Of a DNA stretch of 64,000 nt, positions 23,632-41,229 are shown in pieces (positions within the stretch are counted from its first letter, which is position 1; every line of letters begins with the position of its first letter). A program made the position numbers and the translations under genes. Under the pieces are notes generated by a model that had not been told where the DNA came from, did not search any database, and saw nothing but the letters and a program-made list of their open reading frames with translations. Source of the DNA: an uncultured Clostridia bacterium (GTDB lineage Bacteria > Bacillota > Clostridia > TANB77 > CAG-465); NCBI GenBank assembly GCA_934169925.1, contig CAKPOO010000003.1, positions 62,847 through 126,846 on the forward strand, given 5' to 3'.

Positions 23632-23723
23632 GTATTTGATATATTATATATTATGTATTTGTACATATTTTAGAATACATCTTTTTAAATGTAGTGTAAA
23701 ATGTGGATAAATAAGGAGGATAT

Positions 23724-24521: not shown

Positions 24522-24524
24522 AAA

Positions 24525-24995
24525 ATGAAAAAAGGTATTACAATGCTTTCTTTAGTAATTTATGTTGTTTTATTTTTTGCATTTTCTGCAATTGCAATTT
24601 CTGTTTCTACGAATATGAATTTTAGGACATTATCAGAAAAAGGAATTATTTATTGCAATGAAGAGTTACAAAAATTACAATATAATTTACTAAATAGTGC
24701 TAAAAACAGTACATCTTGTGATATTATACAAAATACTTTTGTTTTTAGTAATGGTGATGAATATGTTTTTGATAGCAGTAATAAAAAAATATATAAAAAT
24801 GGAGGAACTCTTATTGATTCAATATCTAGTTGTTCTTCTATATCTGTATCAGAACTTAAGTCTACACCTGAAAATTTTGTATCAAATATAGACAAAGATG
24901 CAGAATATGTATGTTTAAATGTTGAATTTTCAAAATATAATCAAATTTTAAATACAGATTTATTTTTCAAGATAGGAGATGATACAGTTGAATAA
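24525..24995 (+). CDS. Minor pilin-like protein (MKKG|ITMLSLV..., no Glu+5)
   Basis: 156 aa with a pilin-like N-terminal helix and Cys residues in the C-terminal region. Confidence 0.4.
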   Translation: MKKGITMLSLVIYVVLFFAFSAIAISVSTNMNFRTLSEKGIIYCNEELQKLQYNLLNSAKNSTSCDIIQNTFVFSNGDEYVFDSSNKKIYKNGGTLIDSISSCSSISVSELKSTPENFVSNIDKDAEYVCLNVEFSKYNQILNTDLFFKIGDDTVE

Positions 24996-25209
24996 ATTAA
25001 AAAATATTTCAAAATTAAAAGGCTCTGGAATTTTGGTAGTAATTTTATCAGCTATTGCTTTTTCGATTTATTCAATGAGTGTTTTTTCAGAATCTAAACA
25101 TTTTAGTTTGATATTTAGTAAGTATGAAAAAAGTATATCAAATTATTATGAAAAAAATGTAAATGATGTAGATGGATTTTATGATTATATTTTAAAGTTA
25201 AATAAATAA
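24979..25209 (+). CDS. Small pilin-like protein
   Basis: 76 aa; LKGSGILVVILSAIAFSIYSMSVF is a pilin-like helix. Confidence 0.3.
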   Translation: MIQLNKLKNISKLKGSGILVVILSAIAFSIYSMSVFSESKHFSLIFSKYEKSISNYYEKNVNDVDGFYDYILKLNK

Positions 25210-25212
25210 TAG

Positions 25213-26868
25213 ATGGGAGTGTATGTTAAAATGTTTGAAAATGTTAGAGAAAAAAAGAGTCCAATAGGACTAGAGTTTATTAAACAAGGATTACTTACAG
25301 AATCTCAAGTTGATAGAGTTCTTGAATATCAAAGAGAACACAAAGAATTAAAATTTGCTGAAATTGTTGATGTTCTTGATATGTGTAATAAACAAAAATT
25401 ACTTGAAATTTTATCAGAAAAAATTAAAGTAACTATGGAACCACTAGAAGGAGATTTAGATATAAATCCTGTAGAATATTTACCAAGAGATATAATTATA
25501 AACTATAGAGTTATACCTTTTGATTTAGTTGGAAAAACTTTAAAAGTTGCTTTTTCTGATCCACTTGATGCAAACCGTGTAAGAGAAGTAGAACTTTTAC
25601 TTATGAACCAAGGTTACGATATGGAGATTTATGTTACATTATATACATCTATAATGAAACAAATTTCAAATTTAAAAAATGTTGGTACAAAATATGTTAA
25701 TAAAGAAGAAAAAGATGTAACTAAATTAATTGATAATATTATTTTAACAGGTATTGAAAAAAGAGCAAGTGATATTCACTTTGAACCAATGCAAAATAAA
25801 ATAAGAGTAAGATTTAGAATAGATGGTCAACTTGTAAATATAACTGAACTTCCAAAAGAAAGACAAGAACTTATCGCAGGAAGAATTAAGTCTATTTCTA
25901 ATATGTATCAAGAAATTCAAAATGACCAAGATGGTAGTATTGATACTTTTGATAACTATAGTATCCGTGTATCTAGCCAAAAAAATGTTAACGGAGAAAA
26001 GTTTGTTCTAAGACTTTTAAAGAAAAATACAGATGCAAAAGATTTATTTGAACTTGGATTTTTCAATGATAAAGAAACTATTGAAAAAGCATTTAACAAG
26101 AAAAATAGTATAATTCTTGTCTGTGCTCCTACTGGTGAAGGTAAAACTACAACTTTATATAGTGTTCTTGAATATTTAAATAGACCAGAAATAAACTTAA
26201 TTTCAATTGAAAACCCAGTTGAAAGAAGAATACCTGGTGTAAACCAAGTTGAAATTGGTGCAAATATAACATTTGCATCTGCATTAAGAACAGTTTTAAG
26301 ACAAGATCCAGATATAATTCTTGTTGGTGAAATACGTGATGAAGAAACTGCAAAAATAGCAATTGAAGCTGGTCAAACAGGTCACTTAGTTTTATCTACA
26401 ATACATACAATTGATGCTGTTGAAGCTATAACAAGACTTAGAAAAATGGGAATTTCTGATTATGATGTATCAGCAACACTAGTAACATCTATATCAGAAA
26501 GACTAGTAAGACGTTTATGTCCAAAATGTAAAAGACCTCATACTTTTACAGAAGATGAATTAAAATATATTCAAAGAGCAGAAAAAATTTCTGGAGTTAA
26601 TTTTGATTTAGAAAACGCACAACTTTTCGAACCAGTTGGTTGTGAATATTGTGATAATATTGGTTATTATGAAAGAATAGGTATATTTGAATTGTTATCT
26701 TTAGATGAGTATTTAAAAGATATGATTTCAAGTGGAAGATCAACTATTGATATTCGTAAATATGCAAAGGAAAATACAGGATATGAACCATTAGTTGTTG
26801 ACGGTATAAGAAAAGTATTAGAAGGAATTACTACAATAGATGAATTAAAAACAAAAATAACTCTATAA
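25213..26868 (+). CDS. pilB: Type IV pilus assembly ATPase PilB (GspE family)
   Basis: 551 aa. N-terminal GspE_N-like domain, Walker A CAPTGEGKTTTL, tetracysteine motif CPKC...CEYC, His box. An alternative ATG lies at 25231. Confidence 0.85.
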   Translation: MGVYVKMFENVREKKSPIGLEFIKQGLLTESQVDRVLEYQREHKELKFAEIVDVLDMCNKQKLLEILSEKIKVTMEPLEGDLDINPVEYLPRDIIINYRVIPFDLVGKTLKVAFSDPLDANRVREVELLLMNQGYDMEIYVTLYTSIMKQISNLKNVGTKYVNKEEKDVTKLIDNIILTGIEKRASDIHFEPMQNKIRVRFRIDGQLVNITELPKERQELIAGRIKSISNMYQEIQNDQDGSIDTFDNYSIRVSSQKNVNGEKFVLRLLKKNTDAKDLFELGFFNDKETIEKAFNKKNSIILVCAPTGEGKTTTLYSVLEYLNRPEINLISIENPVERRIPGVNQVEIGANITFASALRTVLRQDPDIILVGEIRDEETAKIAIEAGQTGHLVLSTIHTIDAVEAITRLRKMGISDYDVSATLVTSISERLVRRLCPKCKRPHTFTEDELKYIQRAEKISGVNFDLENAQLFEPVGCEYCDNIGYYERIGIFELLSLDEYLKDMISSGRSTIDIRKYAKENTGYEPLVVDGIRKVLEGITTIDELKTKITL

Positions 26869-26881
26869 TTTAGGAGGAAAA

Positions 26882-27979
26882 ATGGAAGCATTAGATTCAA
26901 TTTTGCAAAAAGCACTATCTTTAGGTGCTACAGATATTCATATTATTGTTGGTCAATTACCAATTTATAGAATAAGACGTGAACTTGTTTATGATCAATC
27001 AAAATTACCAATGTCAAAATCTACTATTTTAAAAATAATGGAGTACTTTTATGAAAATTATCCAACTTTAAAAGATGATTTTGAAGAAGATAAACAAGTT
27101 GACTTTACTTATTCATACATGGAAAATAGATTTAGAATTAATATATCTTTATCAAAAAGTAATCCTACTTTTTCTATTAGGGTTATACCTAATGGAAGTA
27201 TAAAAGTTAGAGATTTAGGATTAATTGATATAATAAATAAGATGAGAACTATTCAAAGTGGTTTAATCTTAGTTACAGGTAAAATTAATTCTGGAAAAAC
27301 TACAACTATGAATGCATTCATACAAGAAGTAAATAAATCTGATAAGAAAAAAATTGTTACACTAGAAGATCCAATAGAATATGAACACATATCTCAGGAA
27401 TCTGTTGTTATTCAAAAAGAAATAGGAAAAGAACTTGATGTAAAAGATTATAAATCAGGTCTTATAAACCTACTTAGAGAAGATGCTGATATTGCCGTAA
27501 TTGGAGAAATAAGAGATAGAGAAACAATGGACGTTGCTTTAGATCTTGCAGAATCAGGGGGACTTGTTGTAGGTACACTTCATACTCGTTCTTGTGGTGA
27601 AACATTAGAAAGAATTCTTTCTTTATATGATGGTAGTGAAAAAGCTGCTATAAAAAATACTTTGTCATCTGTTTTAAAAATGGTAATTTCTCAAAAATTA
27701 ATCATAAGTAAACAAAATGAATTACTTATGGTACCAGAAATAATGATGGTAAACACTGTATTAGCAGCTATAATACGACAAGAAAAGTTTAATATTGGTG
27801 ATATAGAAGATTCTATACATTCACAAAATGATATAGGATGTGTTAGTTTTGAACAATCTTTTACAGATCTTTATATAAGAAATTTAGTTGATTTAAAGAC
27901 TATAAAAGAAAATGTTGATCCAGAAAGATTTAAAATTATTAAAAATCTAATAATAAGTTCTGGTGTATCACTTGAGTAA
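26882..27979 (+). CDS. pilT: Twitching-motility / pilus retraction ATPase PilT
   Basis: 365 aa. LVTGKINSGKTTT (Walker A), GEIRDRETM (Asp box), VVGTLHT; length typical of PilT. Confidence 0.8.
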   Translation: MEALDSILQKALSLGATDIHIIVGQLPIYRIRRELVYDQSKLPMSKSTILKIMEYFYENYPTLKDDFEEDKQVDFTYSYMENRFRINISLSKSNPTFSIRVIPNGSIKVRDLGLIDIINKMRTIQSGLILVTGKINSGKTTTMNAFIQEVNKSDKKKIVTLEDPIEYEHISQESVVIQKEIGKELDVKDYKSGLINLLREDADIAVIGEIRDRETMDVALDLAESGGLVVGTLHTRSCGETLERILSLYDGSEKAAIKNTLSSVLKMVISQKLIISKQNELLMVPEIMMVNTVLAAIIRQEKFNIGDIEDSIHSQNDIGCVSFEQSFTDLYIRNLVDLKTIKENVDPERFKIIKNLIISSGVSLE

Positions 27980-28025
27980 TTTTTTTATTTATAATATAAT
28001 GAATTTATGTGGAAGGAGATAAAAG

Positions 28026-29381
28026 ATGCCAAGTTATAAATATAGAGTAATATATGAAGATGGAAAAATTGGTAGAGGCAGAATACTTGCTAAAAGTAAG
28101 GCTCATGCTATTGAAAGTTTAAAAAATGATAATGTTCAACCTGTATCTATTCAAAGACAGAATGATCCACATAAGAGATTTAAAAAAATTGATTATAAAA
28201 GATTAGTAAGATCTCAAATTATGAAAAATCAGAATTCGAGAGAAAAACATACTCAAAAGGAAAAGATTGATTGGAAAAACTTAACTTTAAGAGACTTAAA
28301 AAAATTAGAATTTCATCCTTTTAGACATGTTACTAGTAAAGATATAATTTCTTTTGTTAATAACTTTTATATATTAAAAAAGGCAAAATTTAATAATGTT
28401 CAAGCTTTAGAAGCTTTATATAATGGTGTAACAAATCCTGCTTTCAAATCTATAGTTGAAGATTTATTAATAGGAGTTCAAGATGGTGAAAAAATATATA
28501 AGATAATGATGAGTTATCCTAAAGTTTTCCCACCAATATTTGTTAATTTCATAAAAGTTGGTGAAGAGTCTGGTACACTTGATAGTGCACTTATATATGC
28601 AAGAGATTATGTAGAAAGTTCTATGGCTTTAAAAAAGAAAATAAGAGCGTCTGTTATTCCAAGAGTTTTACAATTCTTTGGTATAATTATCATGATGTGC
28701 GTAGCTGTTGTTATTGGTGTACCGATGTTACAAGATGTTTATGACATGTTTGATTCATCTGCTGAAATACCAGCTGCTACAATGGGACTTTTAAATGCAG
28801 TTAACTGGTTAATTGCAAATTGGTATTGGGTAGTACTAGGAATTGGTGTTGTAGTATTTGGTTTCTTAGCTATTATAAGTACGACAAGAGGCAGATATAA
28901 TTGGGATAAGTTCTTATTTAGGTGTCCAGTGCTTGGAAATGTTATAAGGAATATAACAATTGAGAAGTTTTTTCTTGCAATGCTTCTTAACTTAAAAAAT
29001 GGTTTAAGATTACAAGAAAGTTTAGAGATATCAAAAACTGTTACAAACAATCTATTTTTCTTATCAACAGTAGAAATTGCAAAAGCAAATGCTATAACAG
29101 GTGAATCTTGGATTACACCTTTTGTGGATAATAAAATATTTACACCTATGATGTCACAAATGGTATCAGTAGGTATGAAAACAGATATTGTTGAAATGAT
29201 AGAGAAAGTAAATGTATATATAAGACAAGAAATTGATGAATCAGTTGCAAAATTTGTTAAAGTTTTACCTGATATTACATATCTTTTTGTTGGTATAGCA
29301 TTGATTGCCTTTGTTATAACAATTGTTGTTCCAATAATTGGAGTATACATGGGAAGTTTCATAACAATCGATAGTTATTAA
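28026..29381 (+). CDS. pilC: Type IV pilus inner-membrane platform protein PilC (GspF family)
   Basis: 451 aa with two T2SF-type repeats separated by TM helices and a typical N-terminal cytoplasmic domain. Confidence 0.75.
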   Translation: MPSYKYRVIYEDGKIGRGRILAKSKAHAIESLKNDNVQPVSIQRQNDPHKRFKKIDYKRLVRSQIMKNQNSREKHTQKEKIDWKNLTLRDLKKLEFHPFRHVTSKDIISFVNNFYILKKAKFNNVQALEALYNGVTNPAFKSIVEDLLIGVQDGEKIYKIMMSYPKVFPPIFVNFIKVGEESGTLDSALIYARDYVESSMALKKKIRASVIPRVLQFFGIIIMMCVAVVIGVPMLQDVYDMFDSSAEIPAATMGLLNAVNWLIANWYWVVLGIGVVVFGFLAIISTTRGRYNWDKFLFRCPVLGNVIRNITIEKFFLAMLLNLKNGLRLQESLEISKTVTNNLFFLSTVEIAKANAITGESWITPFVDNKIFTPMMSQMVSVGMKTDIVEMIEKVNVYIRQEIDESVAKFVKVLPDITYLFVGIALIAFVITIVVPIIGVYMGSFITIDSY

Positions 29382-29484: not shown

Positions 29485-29513
29485 TTGACATCTAATTAAA
29501 AAACGAGTATAAT
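29485..29513 (+). promoter_or_regulatory. Sigma-A promoter for tRNA-Lys (TTGACA-N17-TATAAT)
   Basis: Consensus -35 and -10 hexamers with 17-nt spacing, 14 nt upstream of the tRNA 5' end. Confidence 0.6.
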
Positions 29514-29526
29514 TATACTTGTTAGA

Positions 29527-29602
29527 GTACCATTAGCTCAGTTGGTAGAGCAGTTGCCTCTTAAGCAATTTGTCCAGGGTTCGAGCCCCTGATGGTGCAC
29601 CA
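29527..29602 (+). tRNA. tRNA-Lys (anticodon CUU)
   Basis: Manual fold: acceptor GUACCAU/AUGGUGC (one G-U pair), D-arm GCUCAGUUGGUAGAGC, anticodon loop CUCUUAA, T-arm CAGGG-UUCGAGC-CCCUG, encoded CCA. Confidence 0.85.
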
Positions 29603-29645
29603 AATTTGAGGAAGTTTTTAAGCTTTCTCTTTTTTTATATACTTA

Positions 29646-29710: not shown

Positions 29711-31012
29711 ATGCAAGGTATAACTGTAGATTTTCAAGGTGTAAAAAGATTTGTAAATGATTATGAATTAGAGGGTGTAAAGTCAAAAGTTTTAGACTCA
29801 AATAGAAAGCTTGAAAACAAATCTGGTCTTGGTAATGAAATGCTTGGTTGGATGAATTTACCAATAGATAGAAATGATGAAGAAATCACAAGAATAAAGG
29901 AAGTTGCAAAAAAAATACAAAAGCAGTCTGAAGTTTTTGTTGTTATTGGAATAGGTGGATCATACCTTGGTGCACAAGCTATGATTGATTTATTTACTAA
30001 TTCATTTAATAATTTAGTAGCAGAATCAGTTAGAAAATCTCCACAAATAATATTTGCTGGAAATACATTAAGTGCAAAATATTTAAGAAACTTAGTTGAA
30101 TATTTAGAAGATAAAGATTTTTCTATTAATGTTATTTCTAAATCTGGTAAGACATTAGAACCTGCTGTTACATTTAGAACATTAAGAGTAATGCTAGAAC
30201 AAAAATATGGAATTACTGGTGCAAGTGAAAGAATATATGTAACAACAGATGAAAACAAGGGAATATTACACGATATTGCTGTAAAACATGAATATGAAAG
30301 ATTTATTGTTCCAGATGATGTTGGAGGTAGATATTCTGTACTGACTGCAGTTGGACTTTTACCAATGGCTGTTGCAAATATTGATATTGAAGATATTTTA
30401 GATGGAGCTCAATTTGCATCTCATGTTTACTCTGATATTGATTTTGATAATAATGACTGTATGAAGTATGCAGCATATAGATATGCACTATACTCAAAAG
30501 GTAAAGAAATAGAAATAATGGCAAGCTATGAACCAAGTTTTAAATACTTTATTGAATGGTATAAACAATTATTTGGTGAAAGTGAAGGAAAAGATTTTAA
30601 AGGACTTTTCCCAGCAGGAACTATATATACAACTGATTTGCATTCTATGGGTCAACTTGTACAACAAGGAAAAAGAAATATTTTTGAAACTATATTAAAT
30701 GTAAAACTTGATAGAAGTTTTATAACCTTACCAGAGGTAGAAGATGATGAAGATGGATTAAATTATTTAGCAGGAAAAGATATTGATTATATAAATAAAC
30801 AAGCTTTTTTAGGTACTCTAAAAGCTCATGTTGATGGTCAAGTTCCAAACATTGTAATTAATATAGACGATATAAATGAATATTCTGTAGGTCAACTTAT
30901 ATATTTCTTTGAAAAAGCATGTGCTTTAAGTGCTTATACATTAGGTGTAAATCCTTTTAATCAACCTGGAGTAGAAGCATATAAGAAAAATATGATGGAA
31001 CTTTTAAAATAG
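29711..31012 (+). CDS. pgi: Glucose-6-phosphate isomerase
   Basis: 433 aa. Short Firmicute-type PGI with signature FVVIGIGGSYLGAQA and a conserved C-terminal region. Confidence 0.85.
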   Translation: MQGITVDFQGVKRFVNDYELEGVKSKVLDSNRKLENKSGLGNEMLGWMNLPIDRNDEEITRIKEVAKKIQKQSEVFVVIGIGGSYLGAQAMIDLFTNSFNNLVAESVRKSPQIIFAGNTLSAKYLRNLVEYLEDKDFSINVISKSGKTLEPAVTFRTLRVMLEQKYGITGASERIYVTTDENKGILHDIAVKHEYERFIVPDDVGGRYSVLTAVGLLPMAVANIDIEDILDGAQFASHVYSDIDFDNNDCMKYAAYRYALYSKGKEIEIMASYEPSFKYFIEWYKQLFGESEGKDFKGLFPAGTIYTTDLHSMGQLVQQGKRNIFETILNVKLDRSFITLPEVEDDEDGLNYLAGKDIDYINKQAFLGTLKAHVDGQVPNIVINIDDINEYSVGQLIYFFEKACALSAYTLGVNPFNQPGVEAYKKNMMELLK

Positions 31013-31020: not shown

Positions 31021-31824
31021 ATGAAAAAATTAAGTAACTTTGATTTAAAAGTATTTGCAATTATTTTTATGATTATAGATCATATTGGATACTTTTTTAG
31101 TTTTGCTTTAAGTAGTGATGTATATATAACTTTTAGAATAATTGGAAGATTGGCTATGCCAATCTTTGCTTATTTAGTAGCAGAGGGAATCTATTATACA
31201 AAAGATATAAAAAAGTATATAGCAAGACTTGGAATTTTTGCTATAGTAACTCAAGCATTACTTATTTTAATAGATTATATACAAGTAAAAATTGGAAATA
31301 TAAAACTTGCAAATATATCAAGTAGTGCAAATATATTATTTTCCTTTATGTTTGCTGCTATAGTCATTATGCTTATTTGTAAGTTTATAGAAAAAGCAAA
31401 AATAACATTTTTTGTAAAAAATAAAAATTTAAAGTTAAAAGATATATTAAGAAATGTAGTAGTTATGTTTTTTGAATTTTTAGCTGTTATATTTATTTTT
31501 GTATTATTTAAAATTTTAAAATTTGATTATGGAATAAATGCTTTTTTACTTGTTGTTTTAATATCAATTATAAATAAAATATATAAAATAAGAAATATAG
31601 AAAGAATAGGAAATGTAAGTTATTATATACTTGTATTTTTAAGTTTGTTTTTACTTTGTTTTCCTCTTAAAAATTATTCATATATAAGACTATTTTCTAT
31701 TGTATTTATTTTATTTTATAGCGGAAAAAAAGGAAAATATAGCAAATATTTATTTTATATTGCATATTTGTTACAATATGTAATCATTTCAATTAGTTCT
31801 ATAATTGTATTCATGCATTTTTAA
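31021..31824 (+). CDS. TraX-family membrane protein (F-pilin acetylase family)
   Basis: 267 aa. N-terminal LKVFAIIFMIIDHIGYFF matches the TraX family signature; polytopic. Confidence 0.65.
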   Translation: MKKLSNFDLKVFAIIFMIIDHIGYFFSFALSSDVYITFRIIGRLAMPIFAYLVAEGIYYTKDIKKYIARLGIFAIVTQALLILIDYIQVKIGNIKLANISSSANILFSFMFAAIVIMLICKFIEKAKITFFVKNKNLKLKDILRNVVVMFFEFLAVIFIFVLFKILKFDYGINAFLLVVLISIINKIYKIRNIERIGNVSYYILVFLSLFLLCFPLKNYSYIRLFSIVFILFYSGKKGKYSKYLFYIAYLLQYVIISISSIIVFMHF

Positions 31825-31948
31825 TATATTGTTTACATAAACACTTTACAAGAAAAAATTATTGTGGTATAATTCGAATATCACAGTAATTTTTTTTTAC
31901 AAAAAACATAAGATTAATTATATAATGTCCAAAGGAGGAAATTTTATA

Positions 31949-32623
31949 ATGGAAAATTATAATGAAAACAATTTAATAAAAATTGCAGGTAAAGTGGTAG
32001 AAGAACCTGTATTTAGTCATGAATTATATGAGGAAAAGTTTTATATACTTTATATTGAAACAAGAAGACTTAGTCAATATTCAGACAAATTACCAGTAAT
32101 AATATCAGAAAGATTATATGATATATCAAATATAAAAAAGGATGATATTTTTTATATTGAAGGTCAATTTAGATCATATAACAAATTAAATGAAGGAAAA
32201 AGTAAATTAATTTTATCTATATTTGCAAGAGAATTTGTAAAAAAAGATGATGAAGAAATTTTAACTTTAAATGATGCTAATTTTGTAGGGTTTATATGCA
32301 AGCAACCTATATATAGAAAAACTCCACTTGGAAGAGAAATTGCAGATGTTTTAGTTGCAGTTAATCGTTCATATAAAAAATCAGATTATATACCATGTAT
32401 ATTATGGGGAAGAAATGCTAAATTTTGTGAAACATTACCTGTTGGTTCAAAAGTAAAAATTAGTGGAAGAATCCAATCAAGAAAATATGAAAAGAAAAAT
32501 CAAGATGGTACTGTTATACCAAAAGTTGCATATGAAATATCTGTTTCAAAATTTTCTATTGCAAAAGATGAAAATGTAGAAGATGTTAAAGTTGATGATA
32601 ATAATAATGATAATGTAAAATAG
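31949..32623 (+). CDS. SSB-like protein with two tandem OB folds
   Basis: ORF 31862..32623. ATG at 31949 follows aaggagga and an extended -10 tggtataat. The C-terminal half (VAVNRSYKKSDYIPCILWGRNAKFCE...ISGRIQSRKYEKKNQDG...AYEISVSKFSI) resembles SSB core motifs, and the N-terminal half repeats the pattern. Confidence 0.55.
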   Translation: MENYNENNLIKIAGKVVEEPVFSHELYEEKFYILYIETRRLSQYSDKLPVIISERLYDISNIKKDDIFYIEGQFRSYNKLNEGKSKLILSIFAREFVKKDDEEILTLNDANFVGFICKQPIYRKTPLGREIADVLVAVNRSYKKSDYIPCILWGRNAKFCETLPVGSKVKISGRIQSRKYEKKNQDGTVIPKVAYEISVSKFSIAKDENVEDVKVDDNNNDNVK

Positions 32624-32681
32624 ATTATATAACTTGTTAAACTTTTTGTTTAGCAAGTTTTTTTTATATAAAATTAATAGT

Positions 32682-33182
32682 TTATCTTTCATTTAAATTT
32701 AAGTTTAAAGGATTTATAAATTTATTATCTTTAGAAATACTAAAATGTAAATGTGGACCTGTAGTATTACCATTTTTCATACCATTTGAAAGGTACACAG
32801 GTCCAACTTTTGCAATTACAGTATTAGTAGTTACAAAATCACCTTTTGATATTAAAAAGTTTTCTGAAACATGACAATACATTGATTTATATCCATTTTC
32901 ATGGGATAGTATAACAGTATTTCCATATCCGTTTAAAAATCCAACAAATATAACTGTACCATTATAAAATGGATAAATATCTGAATTTATAGGAGCACCA
33001 AAATCAATTCCATCATGAAAGTTAATAACTCCATATAAATCCCTATAACCAAACTCAGATGTGATATATGTAAATTTTGTCGGAAAGTAAAAAAGGTTTT
33101 TGGAAGTGGAAGAGGATGTAAATATTGAAAAAATAAATATAATAACAAGAAATGTTACATTAATGTTAAAAAAATGTTTCAA
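32682..33182 (-). CDS. Secreted M23-family (LytM-type) metallopeptidase
   Basis: 166 aa with a signal peptide. HDGIDF (HxxxD) and GPHLHFSI (HxH) zinc-ligand motifs. Confidence 0.8.
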   Translation of the reverse strand: MKHFFNINVTFLVIIFIFSIFTSSSTSKNLFYFPTKFTYITSEFGYRDLYGVINFHDGIDFGAPINSDIYPFYNGTVIFVGFLNGYGNTVILSHENGYKSMYCHVSENFLISKGDFVTTNTVIAKVGPVYLSNGMKNGNTTGPHLHFSISKDNKFINPLNLNLNER

Positions 33183-33378
33183 AATATCACCATTTCTATT
33201 TTAGCGTGATAATATTTATTTGTAAAGAAAATTTGTATGTCAAATATTGACAAGATTACATAATTTAAAAATTAGAATTAATTTAAATTAAATTATATTA
33301 AAAATGTGAAAAAATACTTGATTTTTATTTCTCAAATGTTATAATTAAACTGTAGAAGTTAGTTTAAGGAGGAAATTT

Positions 33379-33795
33379 ATGAAAAGTTCAAAAAAATTCT
33401 TATTAAGAATAATACCAGTTTTTGTTGTTTTAAGCATAATATTAACTTCAGTAACAGGAGTTTTTGCATTTGGTAATTTTAATGATATTTCTGAGATTAA
33501 TAAAGGTGCAGGAACTACTGGTGATGGTGTTACATCTGTTAATGGTGCTGTAAATAGAGTATGGAAAACTGTTGTAACTGTTTTACAAATATTAGCAGTT
33601 GCTGCAATAGTTATAGCTGGTGTAAGATATATGTTTGCTTCAGCTGATACAAAAGCTGATATAAAAGGACAAACAGTTGGACTTGTTGTTGGTGCTGTAC
33701 TTGTTTTCGGTGCATCATTTATCGTTCAATTTATTATTAATGTTACTTCAGATGTTACAGGGGTAAAAGAATCACAACAAACACAACAACAATAA
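33379..33795 (+). CDS. VirB2/TrbC-like T4SS pilin paralog 1
   Basis: 138 aa. Signal peptide followed by two hydrophobic helices (TVVTVLQILAVAAIVIAGVRYMF / VGLVVGAVLVFGASFIVQFII) separated by a short charged loop, which is the VirB2 topology. Confidence 0.55.
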   Translation: MKSSKKFLLRIIPVFVVLSIILTSVTGVFAFGNFNDISEINKGAGTTGDGVTSVNGAVNRVWKTVVTVLQILAVAAIVIAGVRYMFASADTKADIKGQTVGLVVGAVLVFGASFIVQFIINVTSDVTGVKESQQTQQQ

Positions 33796-33844
33796 TAATG
33801 TTTTTATAAAATCAGGCTTGACCTGATTTTTTTATTAAAGATAG

Positions 33845-34234
33845 GTGAGATTTATGAATAAATTTAAAATCTTTGCAATAGTCATACTTGTTATTACTTT
33901 ATTTTTAACATTATATCCAGTGGTGTATGCAGATTTTGGAGAAGGTTTTGATCCTAGTAAGGTTGCATATGATAAAGTGTTAGAGGATGATACAGGTGTT
34001 GGAAAAATTACAAGCCCTATAAACAAAATTTTTAATACAATAGTTAGAATTTTACAAATTTTGTCTATTGCAGGAATAATATTAACAGGTCTTAGATATA
34101 TGCTTACAACTGATACTTTAAAAAAAGCAGATTTTAAAGAATCTACTATGTATTTGATAATAGGTATGGTTATAGTATTTTGTGCAAGTACAGTAATTGA
34201 ATTTATTGTAAAAGCTGCAGATGAAGTAATATAG
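33845..34234 (+). CDS. VirB2/TrbC-like T4SS pilin paralog 2
   Basis: 129 aa with the same architecture; the conserved motif IL.ILQI(L/V)S(I/V)A...I.TGL(R/K)YM is shared with paralogs 1 and 3. Confidence 0.55.
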   Translation: MRFMNKFKIFAIVILVITLFLTLYPVVYADFGEGFDPSKVAYDKVLEDDTGVGKITSPINKIFNTIVRILQILSIAGIILTGLRYMLTTDTLKKADFKESTMYLIIGMVIVFCASTVIEFIVKAADEVI

Positions 34235-34254
34235 TAAAAGGAGGATTAAGATAC

Positions 34255-34629
34255 ATGAATAATAGTTACAAAATATTATTTAAAATAATGGCTATTGTAT
34301 TTATAGGTATCATTATTGCAAGTAATGTTAGCATTGTTTTTGCAGATGATCTTTCTGATTTTAACAGTACAGATTTTAATGCTGGAGAAGAAAGCGTAGA
34401 AAAGATTGATACTGCCGTTCTTAAAATTTGGAAAACAGTTGTTACAATTTTACAAATTGTTTCTGTTGCAGCTGTTATTATTACTGGACTTAAGTATATG
34501 TTTGCATCATCAGAGAAAAAAGCTGACATAAAATCTATGTCACTTGGATTTATTGTTGGGGCAGTTATTGTCTTTGGATCTTCGTTTGTTGTATCCTTTG
34601 TTATAAAAGTTGTACAAGATACAATATAA
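34255..34629 (+). CDS. VirB2/TrbC-like T4SS pilin paralog 3
   Basis: 124 aa, same architecture. Confidence 0.55.
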   Translation: MNNSYKILFKIMAIVFIGIIIASNVSIVFADDLSDFNSTDFNAGEESVEKIDTAVLKIWKTVVTILQIVSVAAVIITGLKYMFASSEKKADIKSMSLGFIVGAVIVFGSSFVVSFVIKVVQDTI

Positions 34630-34731
34630 TAAGCTTAAATATTAATAAAAAATCTACTTTTTCATTAAAAAAAGTAGATTTTTTTTTACTTTATTGATAT
34701 AATTTGTATGTGAAAATAGAGAGGTTATTTT

Positions 34732-35700
34732 ATGAACAAAAAGATATTTAGTATAGTTATTATGAGCATAGTATTTTTTGCTATGATAGGTGGCAATGTA
34801 TTTGCATGGGTAGAGTCTGATGACGTATCAAGTTTAAGGAGTGATGAAATAGCAGAAAATATAAAAAGTAGTTTTAATAGTAAAAATATAGATGATTTTT
34901 TTTGCTATGTAAATTATGGATATAGTGATTTATCATCTGAGCAAAAAGAAGAAGTTGATCCATTGATAGAATATTCAGTAAAAAATTATAAAAGTCAGCT
35001 ACTAAGTGCTACAAATAAATTAGATCCTACTGAAGATCCAATAAGTTCACAACTTGATAGTGTTTGGAATAAATTTGAAGGTGGAAAGAGCTTTACTTCT
35101 AATGCGTCATCTGGTTCAAAGTCAGACGATGATAAGAAAAAAGCTGCTGATGATTGGTTTGGTCAAGCTACTTCTTGGTGGGGAGATGCTAAAAAAAGTG
35201 GATTTACAATTCCACAAGAAGCTCAGGATGTAATAGATCAATTTACCGATATGATTAACATTATAGGTACAACTTTAATATTTGTTGCAACAATTGTTCT
35301 TGGAATTAAATTTATATTTGGAAGTATTGATGGAAAATCTGAAGCAAAGGAAGATATGATTACTTTACTTGTAGCTTGTGTATTTTTCTTTGGATGGAAT
35401 GGAATAATGGGGATTCTTTTAAATAATGCTCATGATGACATTGCAATAGTTGAAGGTGAAACTAGTTACGTAACTGTAATTTCTAAAATGTTAACTGTAT
35501 TTAGAACAATTTCAAATTGTTTACTTGTTGTTGGTGTTATTTATGTAGGTATAAAATTTATATTTGCTGGTGCACAGGGAAAAGCAGATTTAAAAGCAAA
35601 ATCTGGTTTTTTTATAATTGGTATTATACTTGCATTTTGTACAGTAAATGTTCTTACTTTCTTATCAGATGTTATAAATCAAGTATTAACAAAAACATAA
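34732..35700 (+). CDS. Secreted/membrane protein with an N-terminal soluble domain and two tandem C-terminal VirB2-like hairpin modules
   Basis: 322 aa with a signal peptide. The C-terminus carries two copies of the ...IKFIFG(S/A)..GK..(A/L)K... TM-hairpin motif found in the three small pilins. Confidence 0.45.
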   Translation: MNKKIFSIVIMSIVFFAMIGGNVFAWVESDDVSSLRSDEIAENIKSSFNSKNIDDFFCYVNYGYSDLSSEQKEEVDPLIEYSVKNYKSQLLSATNKLDPTEDPISSQLDSVWNKFEGGKSFTSNASSGSKSDDDKKKAADDWFGQATSWWGDAKKSGFTIPQEAQDVIDQFTDMINIIGTTLIFVATIVLGIKFIFGSIDGKSEAKEDMITLLVACVFFFGWNGIMGILLNNAHDDIAIVEGETSYVTVISKMLTVFRTISNCLLVVGVIYVGIKFIFAGAQGKADLKAKSGFFIIGIILAFCTVNVLTFLSDVINQVLTKT

Positions 35701-35727
35701 GGAATATAAGAATTAGGGGGTTAATAT

Positions 35728-36129
35728 ATGGGAAAATCTTATTATGTTCCACGTAGTGTTAAAGGTGAGACAAGAATACTTATTATATTTACAGTTAAGT
35801 CATTTATTTTTACTCTTGCTTTTGGACTTATAGGTGGTGGAATTTGGGCTTTAGGCTCAAATCTATTTGGAATGGGAATGTTTCCAGGAATTGCAGTTAC
35901 AATTTTATTTGGAGGATTTGGTTATTTAATTGGTACAGCTAAAATACCTGATTCACCAATAATGGGACCATTTCAAAAAGCTGGTGGTGAATATGTTAGT
36001 GAAATAATTAAAAGATTTATCACTTTTAAATCAAGAAAAAAAATATATTTATATAATTACAATAGAGAAAATATAATTAATAATAAAAATAATAAAAATA
36101 GTAGTAATAACAAAGGAGGAAAAAAATAA
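35728..36129 (+). CDS. PrgI-family (VirB3-like) small membrane protein
   Basis: 133 aa. N-terminal YYVPRSVKGETRILIIFTVKSF fits the PrgI-family N-terminal pattern; two TM helices; sits just upstream of the VirB4 gene. Confidence 0.55.
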   Translation: MGKSYYVPRSVKGETRILIIFTVKSFIFTLAFGLIGGGIWALGSNLFGMGMFPGIAVTILFGGFGYLIGTAKIPDSPIMGPFQKAGGEYVSEIIKRFITFKSRKKIYLYNYNRENIINNKNNKNSSNNKGGKK

Positions 36130-37514
36130 TGCCTTATATTCTTTTAGGAGTTCTAGGTATATTTGGTGTAGTATTTTATTTTTATAATAAATCACAAACA
36201 AAAAAGGAAGATACTTCAAATATATCAAATAAAGATAAAGATAAAAATAAAAATTCATCTTCTGGTACTAAATCAGCAGATGTAAAAAAAGATGATGTAT
36301 TCAATTTTATGGAATTTGATAAAATTCAAGATGGTATGATTGTTCAAAATAAAGGAACAAAATATACAATGGCAATTAAATGTAAAGGGGTTAACTATGA
36401 CTTAATGTCTGATGTTGAACAACTTGCAGTAGAAGAAGGATTTATTACTTTTTTAAATACTTTAAGATATCCAATTCAATTATATGTACAAGCACAAAAT
36501 ATTGATTTAAAAGGTGCTATTAATACATACAAAAATAATGTAGCAAATATTAATGATGAATTTAATCAAATTGATAGAGAATATCAAAAAGTTCTTGAAT
36601 CATTTGAAGCTTCTGAAGAAGATATTGATAAAATTGAAAAAGAAAGAAGTAAAGTAAAAAATGTTTATGAATATGCAAACGATATTATAAACTACGTAGA
36701 AGTATTAGGATCTAATAAAGCATTATTACAAAGAAGCTTTTATGTTTTATTATCATACTATACTTCTGAGATAAATGCTTCAAGTAACTTTAGTAAAGAA
36801 GAAGTTGTTAATATGTGTTATAACGAACTTTTAACAAGAGCAAAAGGTATTTGTAGTGCACTTGCAGGTTGTGGAGTTGAAGGTAAAGTATTAAACTCAA
36901 ATGAACTTGCAGATCTATTATATAATGCATATAACAGAGATGATAAAGGATTAATTGATGTTAAAAATGCGTTAGAATCAGGATTTTATAGATTATATTC
37001 TACATCAAAAGATGCTTATGAGAAAAAAGAAGAACTATTAGAAGCAGAAATTGAGAAAAAAGCAAAATTAAAAGCATATAAAGCAATTAAAACTTCAATA
37101 GAAAATGGTACATACGTTTCTGATAAAGCAAAAGAATTGCAAAACGAAGAAGTTGTAAGTAGAGTTGCAACTGAAATAGTAAAAAGAGAAGATGTTCCAG
37201 TTGAAGTAAAAAAAGATGCTCAAAAAAATATAATAGAGGAATATAGACAAGATAAAAGAAAAATATTACTTGAAATAAATGATGAAAAACAAGAAAAGTT
37301 ATCAGAAGCTAATAAAGAAATTGAAAATTTGACAGGGGAAAAAGCAACTACTCAAGAAACAAATAAAGTTGAAGAAACTGCAAAAGATGTTGCAAAAGAA
37401 ATCACAAAACAAGAACTAGATTTAAGAAATGAAGAAGAAAATATTGCTCCTGTTTCTAATAATAAAGTAAATGAAAATTTCTTTGATGATTCAGAAGATG
37501 ATAGTATAATTTAA
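36129..37514 (+). CDS. Membrane-anchored coiled-coil protein of the T4SS-like cluster
   Basis: 461 aa with an N-terminal TM, a Lys/Asp-rich linker, and long predicted coiled coils in the C-terminal half. Translationally coupled to the upstream gene. Confidence 0.45.
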   Translation: MPYILLGVLGIFGVVFYFYNKSQTKKEDTSNISNKDKDKNKNSSSGTKSADVKKDDVFNFMEFDKIQDGMIVQNKGTKYTMAIKCKGVNYDLMSDVEQLAVEEGFITFLNTLRYPIQLYVQAQNIDLKGAINTYKNNVANINDEFNQIDREYQKVLESFEASEEDIDKIEKERSKVKNVYEYANDIINYVEVLGSNKALLQRSFYVLLSYYTSEINASSNFSKEEVVNMCYNELLTRAKGICSALAGCGVEGKVLNSNELADLLYNAYNRDDKGLIDVKNALESGFYRLYSTSKDAYEKKEELLEAEIEKKAKLKAYKAIKTSIENGTYVSDKAKELQNEEVVSRVATEIVKREDVPVEVKKDAQKNIIEEYRQDKRKILLEINDEKQEKLSEANKEIENLTGEKATTQETNKVEETAKDVAKEITKQELDLRNEEENIAPVSNNKVNENFFDDSEDDSII

Positions 37515-37537
37515 TTTAACTTTGGGGGATTAGATAT

Positions 37538-39550
37538 ATGAGTAAAAAAGAAGATAAAAAGAATAAAAAAGATAAAAAGAATAAGGAGAAAAAAGGTAGT
37601 GTAAGTAATGAAGAGATTATAGCAAATAACTCAGATGATTTTAATTCGTTAAAACTTAATCAATCTTCTTTACAAGATTTACTTGCTCCATCTGGTATAG
37701 ATGCATCTCATTATGATTACTTAGAAATATTTTCAAAAGTTTCAAGATTTGCTAGAACATTTTATGTTACAACAATACCAAGACAAGCTACATTTCCATA
37801 CTTTTTATCTGGAGTATATGAATTTGGTGATGTAAATACTTCTGTATATATAACACCTATATCAGAAACAACATCACAAAACGAATTAAATAAAACAATT
37901 GTAGAATTACAATCAGAAAGATATGTTGCAGAAGATAGAGGAGATATAAACAGAGCATCAGTACTATCTGCAAAACAAGCAGAAGCAGAAGCACTTCGTG
38001 ATCAAATAGCTGCAGGTTATAACAAATTATTTGATGCAACTATAGTTTGTACTTTGTTTTCATATACAAAAGCAGAACTTGATAAACTTTCTGAAATACT
38101 TGCAATGGAAGCATCAAAAACTCAACTTGGATTAAAAACAGCTTGGGCTTTACAAGAAGAAGGCTTTAAATCTAATTTACCTTTAAATTCGAATAAAATT
38201 ACAAGAAAACATACTTTTGATAGAGGTTCTATGGCAACAGTATTTCCTTTTGTAAATGCCGATGCTGGTATGGATACAGGTGTTCCAATAGGAATTAACA
38301 AACAAACAGGATTACCTTTATTATTTGATAATTTTAGTTCATCACTTACAAATTATAACATGATAATTTTTGGTAAATCTGGTGCTGGTAAATCTGTTAC
38401 AATAAAAACTATAATGGCAAGATCTGCTATATTAATGGGTGTTGAAAACCTTGTACTTGATGCTGAAGGAGAATATGTTGTTGTTGCTGATGCATTAAGA
38501 GGTATAAACGTTGATATTAGTCCAAAATCAGATACAATTATTAATATATTTGATGTTGAAACAGAAATTGAAAAAGATGAAATTACTGGTAAAGATAAAT
38601 TTGTTTTAAATATCGAAAACAAAGTAGAAGATGTTACACAATCTCTTCTTACTATGGCAAGAGGTGCAACAAAATCTCAAGAAGTTAACGAACTTACAAA
38701 ACAAATAATTGCTGAAATTGTTGCAGAAGAATATGCAGCAAAAGGTATTACTTCTGATCCGGATTCACTTTATACAAGTGAAACTACTTTTGATGAAGAA
38801 GGTAATATTGGTAAAATAAAAAAATTAATGCCTACAATTAGTGATTGGTATGAAAGACTACTTAAAAAAGCAGAAGAAAATGAAAATGATACATACAAAT
38901 ATCACTATGATTATTTAGTTAAAGTTATGAAACAATATTGTAAAAAATATAATGGACAAATGGCATATTTTGACGGTCAATCAACATTTGATTTACTTGA
39001 AGGTTGTCCTTTCATAAACATTAACTTATCTCAATTAGAGGAAAAATTTGCAAGACCACTTGCACAACAAATCTTACTTTCATGGATTTGGGAAAAATAT
39101 GTTAAAAAGAACAGTGAAGATAAGACAAAAGCAAGACAAAAAAGAGTGCTTGTCGATGAAGCATGGATGCTTTTACCTTATCCTGAAGCTGTAGACTTCT
39201 TAAATACAATGGCAAGACGTGCTAGAAAAAGAAATGTTTCATTAACAGTTGTTTCACAGAAATTCCAAGATTTCTACGAAAACAAAAATGTTCAAGCAGT
39301 ATTAACATCTGCTGATACAAAACTATTCTTAGCACAAGATAAATCTGAAATTGCTTATTTACAAGAAGTATTTAAATTAAGTGATGGTGAATCAAACTTC
39401 TTAATAACTTGCACAAGAGGTGAAGGATTAATTAAAATCGGATATTCATCAGCAGTTATTGCAATTAGACCAACTCAAAGAGAATTTGAGTTTGTTGAAA
39501 CAAATATGACAAAATTATTTGAAATGAACAAGAATAAAAATAGAATTTAA
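37538..39550 (+). CDS. VirB4/TraE-family T4SS ATPase
   Basis: 670 aa with Walker A IIFGKSGAGKSVT and the VirB4 Walker B signature VLVDEAWMLL. The N-terminal domain (YDYLEI...RTFYVTTIP) is as in the Gram-positive VirB4 homologs TcpF, PrgJ and Tn916 Orf16. Confidence 0.8.
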   Translation: MSKKEDKKNKKDKKNKEKKGSVSNEEIIANNSDDFNSLKLNQSSLQDLLAPSGIDASHYDYLEIFSKVSRFARTFYVTTIPRQATFPYFLSGVYEFGDVNTSVYITPISETTSQNELNKTIVELQSERYVAEDRGDINRASVLSAKQAEAEALRDQIAAGYNKLFDATIVCTLFSYTKAELDKLSEILAMEASKTQLGLKTAWALQEEGFKSNLPLNSNKITRKHTFDRGSMATVFPFVNADAGMDTGVPIGINKQTGLPLLFDNFSSSLTNYNMIIFGKSGAGKSVTIKTIMARSAILMGVENLVLDAEGEYVVVADALRGINVDISPKSDTIINIFDVETEIEKDEITGKDKFVLNIENKVEDVTQSLLTMARGATKSQEVNELTKQIIAEIVAEEYAAKGITSDPDSLYTSETTFDEEGNIGKIKKLMPTISDWYERLLKKAEENENDTYKYHYDYLVKVMKQYCKKYNGQMAYFDGQSTFDLLEGCPFININLSQLEEKFARPLAQQILLSWIWEKYVKKNSEDKTKARQKRVLVDEAWMLLPYPEAVDFLNTMARRARKRNVSLTVVSQKFQDFYENKNVQAVLTSADTKLFLAQDKSEIAYLQEVFKLSDGESNFLITCTRGEGLIKIGYSSAVIAIRPTQREFEFVETNMTKLFEMNKNKNRI

Positions 39551-39578
39551 AAATTAAATTTAAAATGGATGAGGATTT

Positions 39579-41192: not shown

Positions 41193-41229
41193 ACTTTAAA
41201 TAATTACTAAATTATATGGATGGTTAATT

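What the first reader, a model, noticed from the sequence alone, without database searches (positions are those of the whole stretch)
31021..33182. TraX-family (F-pilin acetylase-like) gene, tandem-OB SSB-like gene and M23 peptidase directly upstream of the VirB2-like pilin genes
In the F system TraX N-acetylates the VirB2-family pilin TraA. Here a TraX-family polytopic protein lies about 1.5 kb upstream of the VirB2-like paralogs, with an SSB-like gene and a secreted M23 peptidase in between. SSB genes and cell-wall hydrolases are common accessory genes of conjugative modules. They may mark the true left border of the T4SS-like system and hint that the pilins are post-translationally modified. 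TraX-family proteins also occur widely outside conjugation, so the linkage is only suggestive.
Basis: inference. Interest (0 to 1): 0.5.

Follow-up and report, generated by a model that had tools for sequence, protein, structure and literature searches.

The report
Housekeeping genes flanking a T4SS-like island
The three genes are real, but two of them (a TraX-family membrane acyltransferase and a two-OB PriB/SSB-like protein) are ordinary chromosomal genes that merely sit beside the secretion-system island, and only the small M23 cell-wall peptidase travels with the pilin genes.

Summary
All three genes exist at the stated coordinates: TraX family (31021-31824), a tandem-OB SSB-like gene (true start 31949, to 32623) and a small M23 peptidase (32682-33182, minus strand).

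The proposed link to the VirB2/VirB4 cluster fails for two of them.
- **SSB-like gene.** It is the Clostridial orthologue of Thermoanaerobacter "TtePriB" (NCBIfam NF004476). It is a core gene found in at least 597 species genomes. In 71 of 80 sampled loci it has no T4SS gene within the up to 10 kb of flank held.
- **TraX.** It follows pgi by 8 nt and evolves fast (31-36% identity between orthologues). It is present in only 6 lineages with this T4SS cluster and absent at that site in 15 other such loci, including one of the two closest relatives sampled. It is only remotely similar to F TraX.
- **Sister clade.** 57 loci (VirB4 64-70% identical) carry the pilin-VirB4 cluster elsewhere in the chromosome. 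None has any of the three genes nearby.
- **M23 gene.** It co-occurs with the pilin genes in about 26 loci, transcribed divergently from them. I therefore place the left border of the island at the hairpin at 32631-32659.

Nothing supports pilin acetylation. The finding is ordinary and of low interest.

The parts
29711..31012 (+). pgi (glucose-6-phosphate isomerase), the upstream operon partner of TraX. Context only, not part of the T4SS.
   Evidence: NCBIfam NF010697 scores 637 bits against a cut-off of 443. Its stop codon is 8 nt before the TraX ATG, and the GGAG ribosome-binding site of TraX overlaps that stop. No terminator-like site lies between them.
31021..31824 (+). TraX-family (PF05857) polytopic membrane protein, a divergent member of the TmAT/AT3 acyltransferase superfamily. 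It is an accessory, patchily distributed gene.
   Evidence: Pfam score 76.1 bits and at least 7 hydrophobic segments. Orthologues are 31-36% identical and occupy the same pgi-to-SSB interval in L008, L014, L089/90, L091 and L093. It is absent from that site in 15 other T4SS-bearing loci. Against F TraX it scores 22 bits.
31845..31873 (+). Promoter-like site (TTTACA-17-TATAAT with TG extension) in front of the SSB-like gene.
   Evidence: It matches 11 of 12 consensus positions and lies in the 124-nt gap between TraX and the ATG at 31949. This is a consensus match only.
31949..32623 (+). Two-OB, tail-less SSB-like protein, the orthologue of Thermoanaerobacter tengcongensis 'PriB' (TtePriB; NCBIfam NF004476/PRK05813). 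It is a core Clostridial gene and forms the conserved chromosomal flank of the island.
   Evidence: PDB 4gs3 matches the N-terminal OB at E 3e-28 with 42% identity. At least 597 species genomes encode it.
32631..32659 (.). Terminator-like hairpin (12-bp stem followed by a T run) between the convergent SSB-like and M23 genes. I propose it as the left boundary of the T4SS-like island.
   Evidence: The site was found and read. The terminator scan found 5 sites in the region against 0.5 expected from shuffles.
32682..33182 (-). Small LytM/M23 metalloendopeptidase with a single N-terminal signal or anchor segment. It is transcribed divergently from the first pilin gene and is probably the leftmost gene of the island.
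   Evidence: PF01551 scores 89.7 bits. The catalytic motifs are invariant in 10 orthologues. Orthologues (HMM 126-264 bits) are found only next to the pilin clusters.
33183..33378 (.). Divergent intergenic region holding promoter-like sites for the M23 gene (33226-33198, minus strand) and for the first pilin gene (33318-33345, plus strand, with TG extension).
   Evidence: Sites found and read. An AGGAGG precedes the pilin ATG at 33379.
33379..33795 (+). First VirB2-like pilin gene. Context only: it is the start of the plus-strand T4SS-like genes.
   Evidence: PF04956 scores 31.2 bits. Hydropathy shows a signal segment plus two transmembrane segments.

Best explanation
The 2.2-kb interval holds three separate transcription units. 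Only one of them belongs with the T4SS-like cluster.

1. **TraX.** It is a TmAT/AT3-superfamily membrane acyltransferase homologue, co-transcribed with pgi. It is a dispensable, fast-evolving accessory gene. Most likely it acylates some extracytoplasmic acceptor unrelated to the pilins; the acceptor is unknown. This step is inferred.
2. **The tandem-OB gene.** It is the Clostridial core orthologue of TtePriB. This is a cytoplasmic, tail-less, two-OB ssDNA-binding protein that mimics an OB dimer within one chain. It presumably serves chromosomal replication or restart, not DNA transfer. It has its own promoter-like site and a terminator-like hairpin. It is simply the conserved chromosomal gene next to which the island sits.
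3. **The small M23 gene.** It is an active-site-intact LytM-type peptidoglycan endopeptidase anchored or exported by one N-terminal hydrophobic segment. It is transcribed divergently from the first pilin gene and co-inherited with the pilin genes. It most likely cuts peptide cross-links locally so that the VirB2-type filament or channel can cross the thick wall. This step is inferred.

The island therefore runs from about 32660 (M23 gene) to the 1339-aa M23 protein that ends at 52554. It sits inside an ancestral interval that runs from the SSB-like gene, past a GT-C-like membrane protein, to an S1-domain gene.
For: **Shown: the SSB-like gene is a core gene.**
- NF004476 equivalog at 282 bits.
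- N-terminal OB matches the TtePriB N-domain, PDB 4gs3, at E 3e-28 and 42% identity.
- Two OB barrels in the AF2 model.
- No conserved acidic C-terminal tip and no hydrophobic segment.
- 7971 homologous protein clusters; the 120 best listed are 66-99% identical.
- 71 of 80 sampled loci have no T4SS gene, TraX or M23 orthologue nearby. Their neighbours are housekeeping-like ORFs named from their sequences rather than by a family scan: polysaccharide deacetylase-like, RluD-like, LspA-like, TypA-like.

**Shown: the flanking synteny is ancestral.**
- In 12 of those loci the S1 gene that follows the island in the window lies 4-10 kb downstream of the SSB-like gene.
- In 14 of them a GT-C-like membrane protein lies just downstream of it.

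**Shown: TraX is patchy.**
- Present in 6 group-A lineages and absent from the site in 15 loci.
- Absent from 57 group-B loci.
- Four of four sampled TraX homologues outside this clade have no T4SS neighbours.
- In PLSDB it matches only Gram-positive plasmids, 44 of 49 non-mobilizable and none F-like.
- It scores 22 bits against F TraX.
- PMC12423673 places the family as a divergent TmAT member.

**Shown: the M23 gene goes with the pilins.**
- Orthologues lie on the strand opposite the pilin genes, in the flank between the SSB-like gene and the pilins, in every group-A locus that reaches far enough, except L107.
- In L175 the order is pgi, SSB-like gene, M23, two pilins, then gdpP-rplI-dnaB.
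- Catalytic residues are invariant.

**Transcription signals.**

**No other T4SS genes to the left.** The left 25 kb of the window holds no relaxase or coupling protein.
Against: - **Phylogenetic non-independence.** All M23-pilin co-occurrence comes from one clade (group A), so it could be inherited synteny rather than function.
- **Systems without M23.** L107 keeps the cluster, the large M23 protein and the S1 gene but has no small M23 gene within 7.3 kb upstream. Group B has no M23-domain ORF within 10 kb on either side.
- **Separation in one lineage.** In L095-L099, L106 and L109 two non-T4SS genes separate the M23 gene from the pilins. One is an ATPase-like ORF and the other is the ancestral GT-C-like protein.
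- **Adjacency of the SSB-like gene.** The adjacency of the SSB-like and M23 genes is about as constant as the M23-pilin adjacency. A lineage-specific role for the SSB-like gene therefore cannot be excluded.
- **TraX and T4SS-positive genomes.** TraX at this site was seen only in T4SS-positive genomes. Genomes lacking it here might carry it elsewhere, which I could not check.
- **Weak promoter evidence.** Promoter-like matches in this AT-rich DNA are no more frequent than in shuffles.
Confidence: 0.7

Rival explanations
1. All three genes are accessory parts of the T4SS-like system. TraX N-acylates the VirB2-like pilins as F TraX does for TraA. The SSB-like protein coats transferred ssDNA. The M23 enzyme opens the wall. 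TraX marks the left border.
For: The gene order pgi, TraX, SSB-like, M23, pilins recurs in 6 lineages whose TraX proteins are only 31-36% identical. At this site TraX was found only in T4SS-positive genomes. Residues K10 and D20-H21 align with the same residues of F TraX.
Against: - The SSB-like gene is a core gene with no T4SS nearby in 71 of 80 loci.
- 15 group-A loci, 57 group-B loci and L107 have the cluster without TraX nearby.
- TraX is tied to pgi by an 8-nt gap and separated from the pilins by a promoter, a terminator and an opposite-strand gene.
- No relaxase or coupling protein is present in the window, so there is no evidence for ssDNA transfer at all.
- F TraX itself is dispensable for transfer (PMC4027160).
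Confidence: 0.07
2. None of the three genes is part of the system. The small M23 peptidase is a general cell-wall or division hydrolase that happens to lie at the island's insertion site. The island begins at the first pilin gene (33379).
For: - L107 and all group-B clusters lack the small M23 gene.
- In the L095-L109 lineage an ancestral chromosomal gene, the GT-C-like protein, lies between the M23 gene and the pilins.
- The cluster already has its own 1339-aa M23 protein.
- The evidence for linkage comes from one clade only.
Against: - No M23 orthologue lies next to the SSB-like gene in any of the 71 T4SS-negative loci. The only M23 hit there, in L021, scores 93 bits and is 8 kb upstream.
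- Of about 48 orthologous protein clusters, every context examined is pilin-adjacent.
- L175 keeps the M23 gene and two pilin genes together with no VirB4-type gene in the 9 kb held on the pilin side, where housekeeping genes follow.
- The divergent promoter region is shared with the first pilin gene.
Confidence: 0.23

Closest known systems
F-plasmid TraX (F-pilin N-acetylation factor; Pfam PF05857)
   Same: Both belong to the same Pfam family (76 bits) and both are polytopic membrane proteins. The N-terminal K...DH residues align.
   Different: - Similarity is remote: 22 bits, 25% identity over 108 aa.
- The window gene is chromosomal and follows pgi rather than sitting in a tra operon.
- It is present beside only a minority of the related T4SS-like clusters.
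- Its nearest relatives are chromosomal Firmicutes genes in metabolic or housekeeping contexts.
- The substrate is unknown.
TtePriB of Thermoanaerobacter (Caldanaerobacter) tengcongensis (PDB 4GS3; NCBIfam NF004476/PRK05813)
   Same: Both have two OB folds in a single chain of about 220 aa and lack an SSB-type acidic tail. The N-terminal domain is 42% identical to 4GS3, E 3e-28. The NF004476 equivalog score is above its cut-off. PMC12614216 describes the two-OB chain.
   Different: No difference in kind was found. It is an orthologue from a 25%-GC gut Clostridium. The in-vivo role of this family is not established, even for TtePriB.
Two-OB SSBs of Deinococcus and Thermus (PDB 1SE8, 2CWA, 2FXQ)
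   Same: The overall tandem-OB architecture matches: Foldseek TM 0.67-0.76 over the full length.
   Different: Identity is only 14-18%. Those proteins are the cells' main SSB and carry the C-terminal interaction tip. This family lacks that tip and, by general knowledge not checked here, coexists with a normal SSB in Clostridia.
Cell-wall hydrolases of Gram-positive T4SSs (PrgK of pCF10, CwlT of ICEBs1; the 'VirB1' class)
   Same: The proposed role is the same: local peptidoglycan opening for a trans-envelope machine encoded next to it. PMC12102498 lists these VirB1-class hydrolases.
   Different: Those enzymes are muramidase, lytic transglycosylase, CHAP or NlpC/P60 proteins, usually large and encoded inside the operon. 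This one is a 166-aa single-domain M23/LytM endopeptidase, transcribed divergently and missing from the sister clade.

Membership tests
TraX family (PF05857) | Match to the family profile above Pfam's gathering score, over most of the profile. | tested here: met
   76.1 bits against a cut-off of 25, covering profile positions 5-213 of 217.
TraX family (PF05857) | Polytopic membrane protein (about 9 transmembrane helices according to PMC12423673). | tested here: met
   Kyte-Doolittle hydropathy gives at least 7 segments above 1.6. This is a crude method and the exact number of helices was not determined.
F-type pilin acetylase (functional TraX of conjugative systems) | Close sequence relationship to plasmid tra-operon TraX proteins. 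| tested here: not met
   BLASTP against F TraX gives 22 bits and 25% identity over 108 aa. tblastn against 72,556 plasmids returns only partial matches on Gram-positive plasmids, 44 of 49 non-mobilizable and none F-like.
F-type pilin acetylase (functional TraX of conjugative systems) | Conserved genetic linkage with the pilin and T4SS genes. | tested here: not met
   TraX is present in 6 lineages. It is absent at the site in 15 group-A loci, in L107 and in 57 group-B loci.
F-type pilin acetylase (functional TraX of conjugative systems) | Required for N-terminal acetylation of the pilin. | not testable with these tools
   This needs mass spectrometry of the mature pilins with and without TraX.
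TtePriB-type two-OB SSB-like protein (NCBIfam NF004476) | Equivalog model score above the curated cut-off. | tested here: met
   281.9 bits against a cut-off of 171, covering profile positions 2-213 of 219.
TtePriB-type two-OB SSB-like protein (NCBIfam NF004476) | Two OB folds in one chain, with the N-terminal domain resembling PDB 4GS3. | tested here: met
   The AF2 model has pLDDT 83 with barrels at 8-99 and 108-204. 4gs3 matches at E 3e-28, with TM 0.92 on the target and 42% identity.
TtePriB-type two-OB SSB-like protein (NCBIfam NF004476) | No conserved acidic SSB C-terminal tip. | tested here: met
   The C-termini of 13 homologues are variable in length and sequence.
TtePriB-type two-OB SSB-like protein (NCBIfam NF004476) | ssDNA binding or a primosome role. 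| not testable with these tools
   This needs biochemistry or genetics.
Conjugative-element SSB (accessory SSB of plasmids and ICEs) | Encoded within the transfer module and distributed with it. | tested here: not met
   71 of 80 loci carry the gene without T4SS genes nearby. 57 group-B loci and L107 carry the T4SS cluster without it.
Peptidase M23 / LytM | Profile match plus the HxxxD, catalytic H and HxH motifs. | tested here: met
   89.7 bits against a cut-off of 28.7. FHxGxD, YxH and TTGPHLH are invariant in 10 orthologues.
T4SS-dedicated cell-wall hydrolase (VirB1-like role) | Systematic co-occurrence with the T4SS genes across independent lineages. | tested here: inconclusive
   It is present in every informative group-A locus (about 26) except L107. 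It is absent from all 57 group-B loci, 20 of which have at least 6.3 kb upstream of the first pilin. All positives come from one clade.

The most novel reading that the evidence does not exclude
In the minority of lineages that keep it, including this one, the chromosomal TraX-family protein acylates the N-termini of the Sec-processed VirB2-like pilins. That would be the first TraX-pilin pair outside F-like plasmids and in a monoderm. My evidence does not exclude a second possibility either: that the strict adjacency of the TtePriB-like gene to the island reflects a lineage-specific use of that ssDNA-binding protein by a relaxase-less T4SS.
Probability: 0.07. Interest if true: 0.6.

Novelty: new member of a known kind. 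Interest (0 to 1): 0.2.

Why it matters
The main value is for annotation.
- It fixes the left boundary of an unusual chromosomal VirB2/VirB4 island in gut Clostridia at about 32.66 kb.
- It removes two tempting but false 'conjugation accessory' calls, TraX and SSB.
- It identifies the SSB-like gene as the widespread TtePriB-type two-OB protein, whose cellular role is still uncharacterised.
- It nominates one small M23 endopeptidase as a testable assembly factor for the pilus-like apparatus.

Tried and rejected
- **Upstream ORFs in distant loci.** I asked whether the ORF upstream of the SSB-like gene in distant Clostridia is a diverged TraX missed by tblastn. An HMM built from 90 homologues found none in 71 loci.
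- **F-like TraX relatives on plasmids.** I looked for plasmid TraX relatives of the F type and found none.
- **F plasmid accession.** AP001918 is not in the collection. I used NC_002483 instead.
- **Liebschner et al. 2012 (PMC3498933).** The paper is not held. I relied on the PDB title and on PMC12614216.
- **L176 divergent ORF.** I asked whether a borderline M23 homologue (P0259, locus L176) has a pilin as its divergent neighbour. The 103-aa ORF is not VirB2-like. P0266 (locus L177) is a generic M23 context.
- **pgi-TraX as a fixed operon.** I considered this and rejected it. pgi lies 4.4 kb away in L008, and extra genes intervene in L087 and L089.
- **Promoter counts.** As a whole they are not above the shuffled expectation, so only the positions of the best sites are reported.
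- **Hidden T4SS genes to the left.** I looked for relaxase or T4CP genes in the left 25 kb of the window and found none.
Full report
**What is there**

The window is a 25%-GC chromosomal segment of an uncultured gut Clostridium. Identical genes occur on a 137-kb Hadza gut-metagenome contig.

- Left of the finding lie RNase R, FTHFS, an SNF2 helicase, the spoIIIA operon, a type IV pilus cluster (PilB/PilT/PilC), tRNA-Lys and pgi.
- Right of it lies the T4SS-like cluster, in this order:
  - four VirB2-like pilin genes;
  - a VirB4 split into a 461-aa and a 670-aa gene;
  - four 486-549-aa paralogues, each with a weak, sub-threshold match to the T4SS_pilin profile;
  - three unknown genes;
  - a 1339-aa M23 protein.
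- After the cluster come an S1-domain gene, an alanine symporter, dnaE, ychF and murC.
- No relaxase or coupling protein was found anywhere in the window.

**The three genes are real**

- **TraX (31021-31824).** It matches PF05857 at 76 bits and has at least 7 hydrophobic segments.
- **The SSB-like ORF.** Its real start is the ATG at 31949. A GGAGG lies 10 nt upstream, and every homologue starts MENYN.
  - It scores 282 bits on NCBIfam NF004476/PRK05813 against a cut-off of 171.
  - An AlphaFold model (pLDDT 83) shows two OB barrels.
  - Foldseek aligns the whole chain to the two-OB SSBs of Thermus and Deinococcus.
  - PMC12614216 summarises TtePriB as two consecutive OB folds in one chain.
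  - There is no conserved acidic C-terminal tip.
- **The M23 gene (32682-33182, minus strand).** It has one N-terminal hydrophobic segment. Its HxxxD, H and HxH motifs are invariant in 10 orthologues.

**Transcription layout**

These are consensus matches only.

- TraX starts 8 nt after the pgi stop, and its GGAG overlaps that stop codon.
- An 11-of-12 extended -10 promoter-like site at 31845-31873 precedes the SSB-like gene.
- A 12-bp hairpin with a T run at 32631-32659 lies between the convergent SSB-like and M23 genes.
- The 196-nt gap between the M23 gene and the first pilin gene holds one promoter-like site on each strand.

On this layout the interval is three units, not one.

**Survey anchored on the SSB-like gene**

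I kept the best 80.

- By tblastn and by HMMs for TraX and the small M23 protein, only the nine closest loci (L007-L015, SSB-like protein at least 58% identical) have the M23 orthologue immediately downstream. Seven of these are long enough to show the pilin and VirB4 genes too.
- The other 71 loci include members labelled Christensenellaceae, Lachnospiraceae, Anaerotignum, Caloranaerobacter and Tissierella. They have the SSB-like gene among what look, from the ORF sequences, like housekeeping neighbours. No T4SS gene, TraX or M23 orthologue lies within the up to 10 kb of flank held.
- In 12 of them a homologue of the window's S1 gene lies 4-10 kb downstream. In 14 a GT-C-like membrane protein lies just downstream of the SSB-like gene.

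The island therefore occupies an ancestral interval that runs from the SSB-like gene, past the GT-C-like gene, to the S1 gene.

**Survey anchored on VirB4**

An alignment of the 670-aa VirB4 part retrieved 80 metagenome loci.

- **Group A.** Twenty-three loci have VirB4 75-87% identical. They repeat the window's order: SSB-like gene, M23 on the opposite strand, pilins, the rest of the cluster, large M23 protein, S1 gene.
  - Fifteen reach far enough left to show the M23 orthologue.
  - Only L093 has TraX.
  - In L104, L112 and L142 pgi directly abuts the SSB-like gene. L142 is one of the two closest relatives sampled, at 87%.
  - L107 keeps the cluster, the large M23 protein and the S1 gene. 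Upstream it has glycosyltransferase-like genes (named from their sequences) and the GT-C-like gene, and neither the SSB-like gene nor the small M23 gene.
- **Group B.** Fifty-seven loci have VirB4 64-70% identical. They carry pilins, a p133-like gene and the split VirB4 at a different chromosomal site.
  - None has TraX, the SSB-like gene, pgi or any M23-domain ORF.
  - Twenty of them extend at least 6.3 kb upstream of the first pilin and 10 kb downstream of VirB4.

**Contexts anchored on TraX**

- Homologues drop from 97% identity (same species) straight to 34%.
- The best of them lie in the same interval between pgi and the SSB-like gene, next to the island (L089/90, L091). One (L087) lies after pgi and a cupin gene on a contig that ends too soon to judge.
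- Four more distant family members sit beside an H+-PPase, Tex/ProS, GDPD/GH38 and an MFS_2 transporter, with no T4SS genes.
- Counting all loci where the region upstream of the SSB-like gene is visible, TraX is present in 6 lineages and absent in 15 loci.
- TraX orthologues are 31-36% identical. In the same loci pgi is 56-73%, the SSB-like protein 58-77% and VirB4 74-87% identical.
- Against F TraX (NC_002483) BLASTP gives 22 bits.
- Against PLSDB only partial matches appear, on Gram-positive and mostly non-mobilizable plasmids.
- The family is a divergent member of the TmAT/AT3 acyltransferase superfamily (PMC12423673).
- F TraX itself is dispensable for transfer (PMC4027160).

**The M23 gene**

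- About 48 protein clusters score as orthologues (117-192 bits). Below that the hits become generic M23 proteins.
- The most distant orthologue examined is L175. It shows pgi, the SSB-like gene, M23 and two VirB2-like pilins, followed directly by gdpP-rplI-dnaB. The M23-pilin pair therefore persists with no VirB4-type gene in the 9 kb held on the pilin side.
- Two weaker homologues are in unrelated contexts.
- Evidence against a dedicated role: L107 and group B lack the gene. In the L095-L109 lineage an ATPase-like ORF and the ancestral GT-C-like gene lie between M23 and the pilins. All positive evidence comes from one clade.

**Conclusion**

- The SSB-like gene is a core TtePriB-type gene that forms the chromosomal flank of the island.
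- TraX is a patchy accessory gene associated with pgi, and nothing ties it to the pilins.
- The small M23 endopeptidase is the only one of the three that tracks the pilin genes. It probably is the leftmost island gene, with a local wall-opening role (inferred, about 0.55 on its own).
- The boundary is best placed at the hairpin at 32631-32659.

The genes themselves are ordinary members of known families. The T4SS-like island is the interesting object, but it is outside this finding.

Noticed in passing
window 33379-52554: The T4SS-like island combines an array of four VirB2-like pilin genes with a VirB4 split into two genes (461 aa and 670 aa). The 670-aa part best matches the monoderm CD1110 and Mycoplasma ICE types. 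The island also has four 486-549-aa paralogues with weak, sub-threshold matches to the T4SS_pilin profile and a 1339-aa M23 protein. No relaxase or coupling protein is present. The VirB4 ATPase part is 64-87% identical across 80 metagenome loci at two different chromosomal sites, which points to vertical inheritance under strong constraint. The system resembles the relaxase-less T4SS with VirB2 arrays described in Patescibacteria (PMC12102498), where VirB2 pilins were said to be absent from Gram-positive T4SS classes.
   Followed up: partly
window 31949-32623; loci L007-L086: The TtePriB-type two-OB protein is very strongly conserved across Clostridia. The 120 best-scoring clusters listed out of 7971 are 66-99% identical to the window protein, and motifs such as KSDYIPCILWGRNAK are invariant among close relatives. 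At least 597 species genomes encode it. Its cellular role appears uncharacterised beyond the TtePriB structure.
   Followed up: partly
window 13860-14748: spoIIIAA is split into two overlapping ORFs, 13860-14336 and 14329-14748. They match the first and second halves of PF19568 respectively. This could be a frameshift, an assembly error or a genuinely split gene.
   Followed up: no
L091:11546-16535: One relative has pgi, TraX, the SSB-like gene, M23 and the pilins. The large paralogue and a p317-like gene then follow directly, with no p133 or VirB4 genes between. The island looks reduced or rearranged.
   Followed up: no
L175:7992-10230: In the MAG GCA_036667975.1, only the M23 gene and two VirB2-like pilin genes lie between the SSB-like gene and gdpP-rplI-dnaB. 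No VirB4-type gene lies within the 9 kb of flank held on the pilin side. Whether the rest of the system lies elsewhere in that genome is unknown.
   Followed up: no
L095-L099, L106, L109-L111, L107; L018-L079 (14 loci): A GT-C-like polytopic membrane protein of 490-560 aa lies just downstream of the SSB-like gene in 14 T4SS-negative genomes. In one group-A lineage it lies inverted between the M23 gene and the pilins. In L107 it is directly upstream of the pilins. It seems to mark the ancestral insertion point. The 64-kb window holds no copy.
   Followed up: partly
window 19046-29381 and 29485-29629: A full type IV pilus gene set lies immediately left of the region: a PilN-domain protein, a prepilin peptidase, PilB, PilT and PilC. 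A tRNA-Lys gene follows, with a perfect 12-of-12 promoter-like site and flanking terminator-like hairpins. The organism therefore encodes two different filament systems within 30 kb.
   Followed up: no
L108:231-864: In this metagenome contig the SSB-like gene is split into two overlapping ORFs. This is probably a frameshift or a sequencing error.
   Followed up: no
L174:8001-9609: Two TraX-family genes sit in tandem next to tex, proS and fba in another uncultured Firmicute. This is an example of paralogous expansion of chromosomal TraX genes unrelated to conjugation.
   Followed up: no
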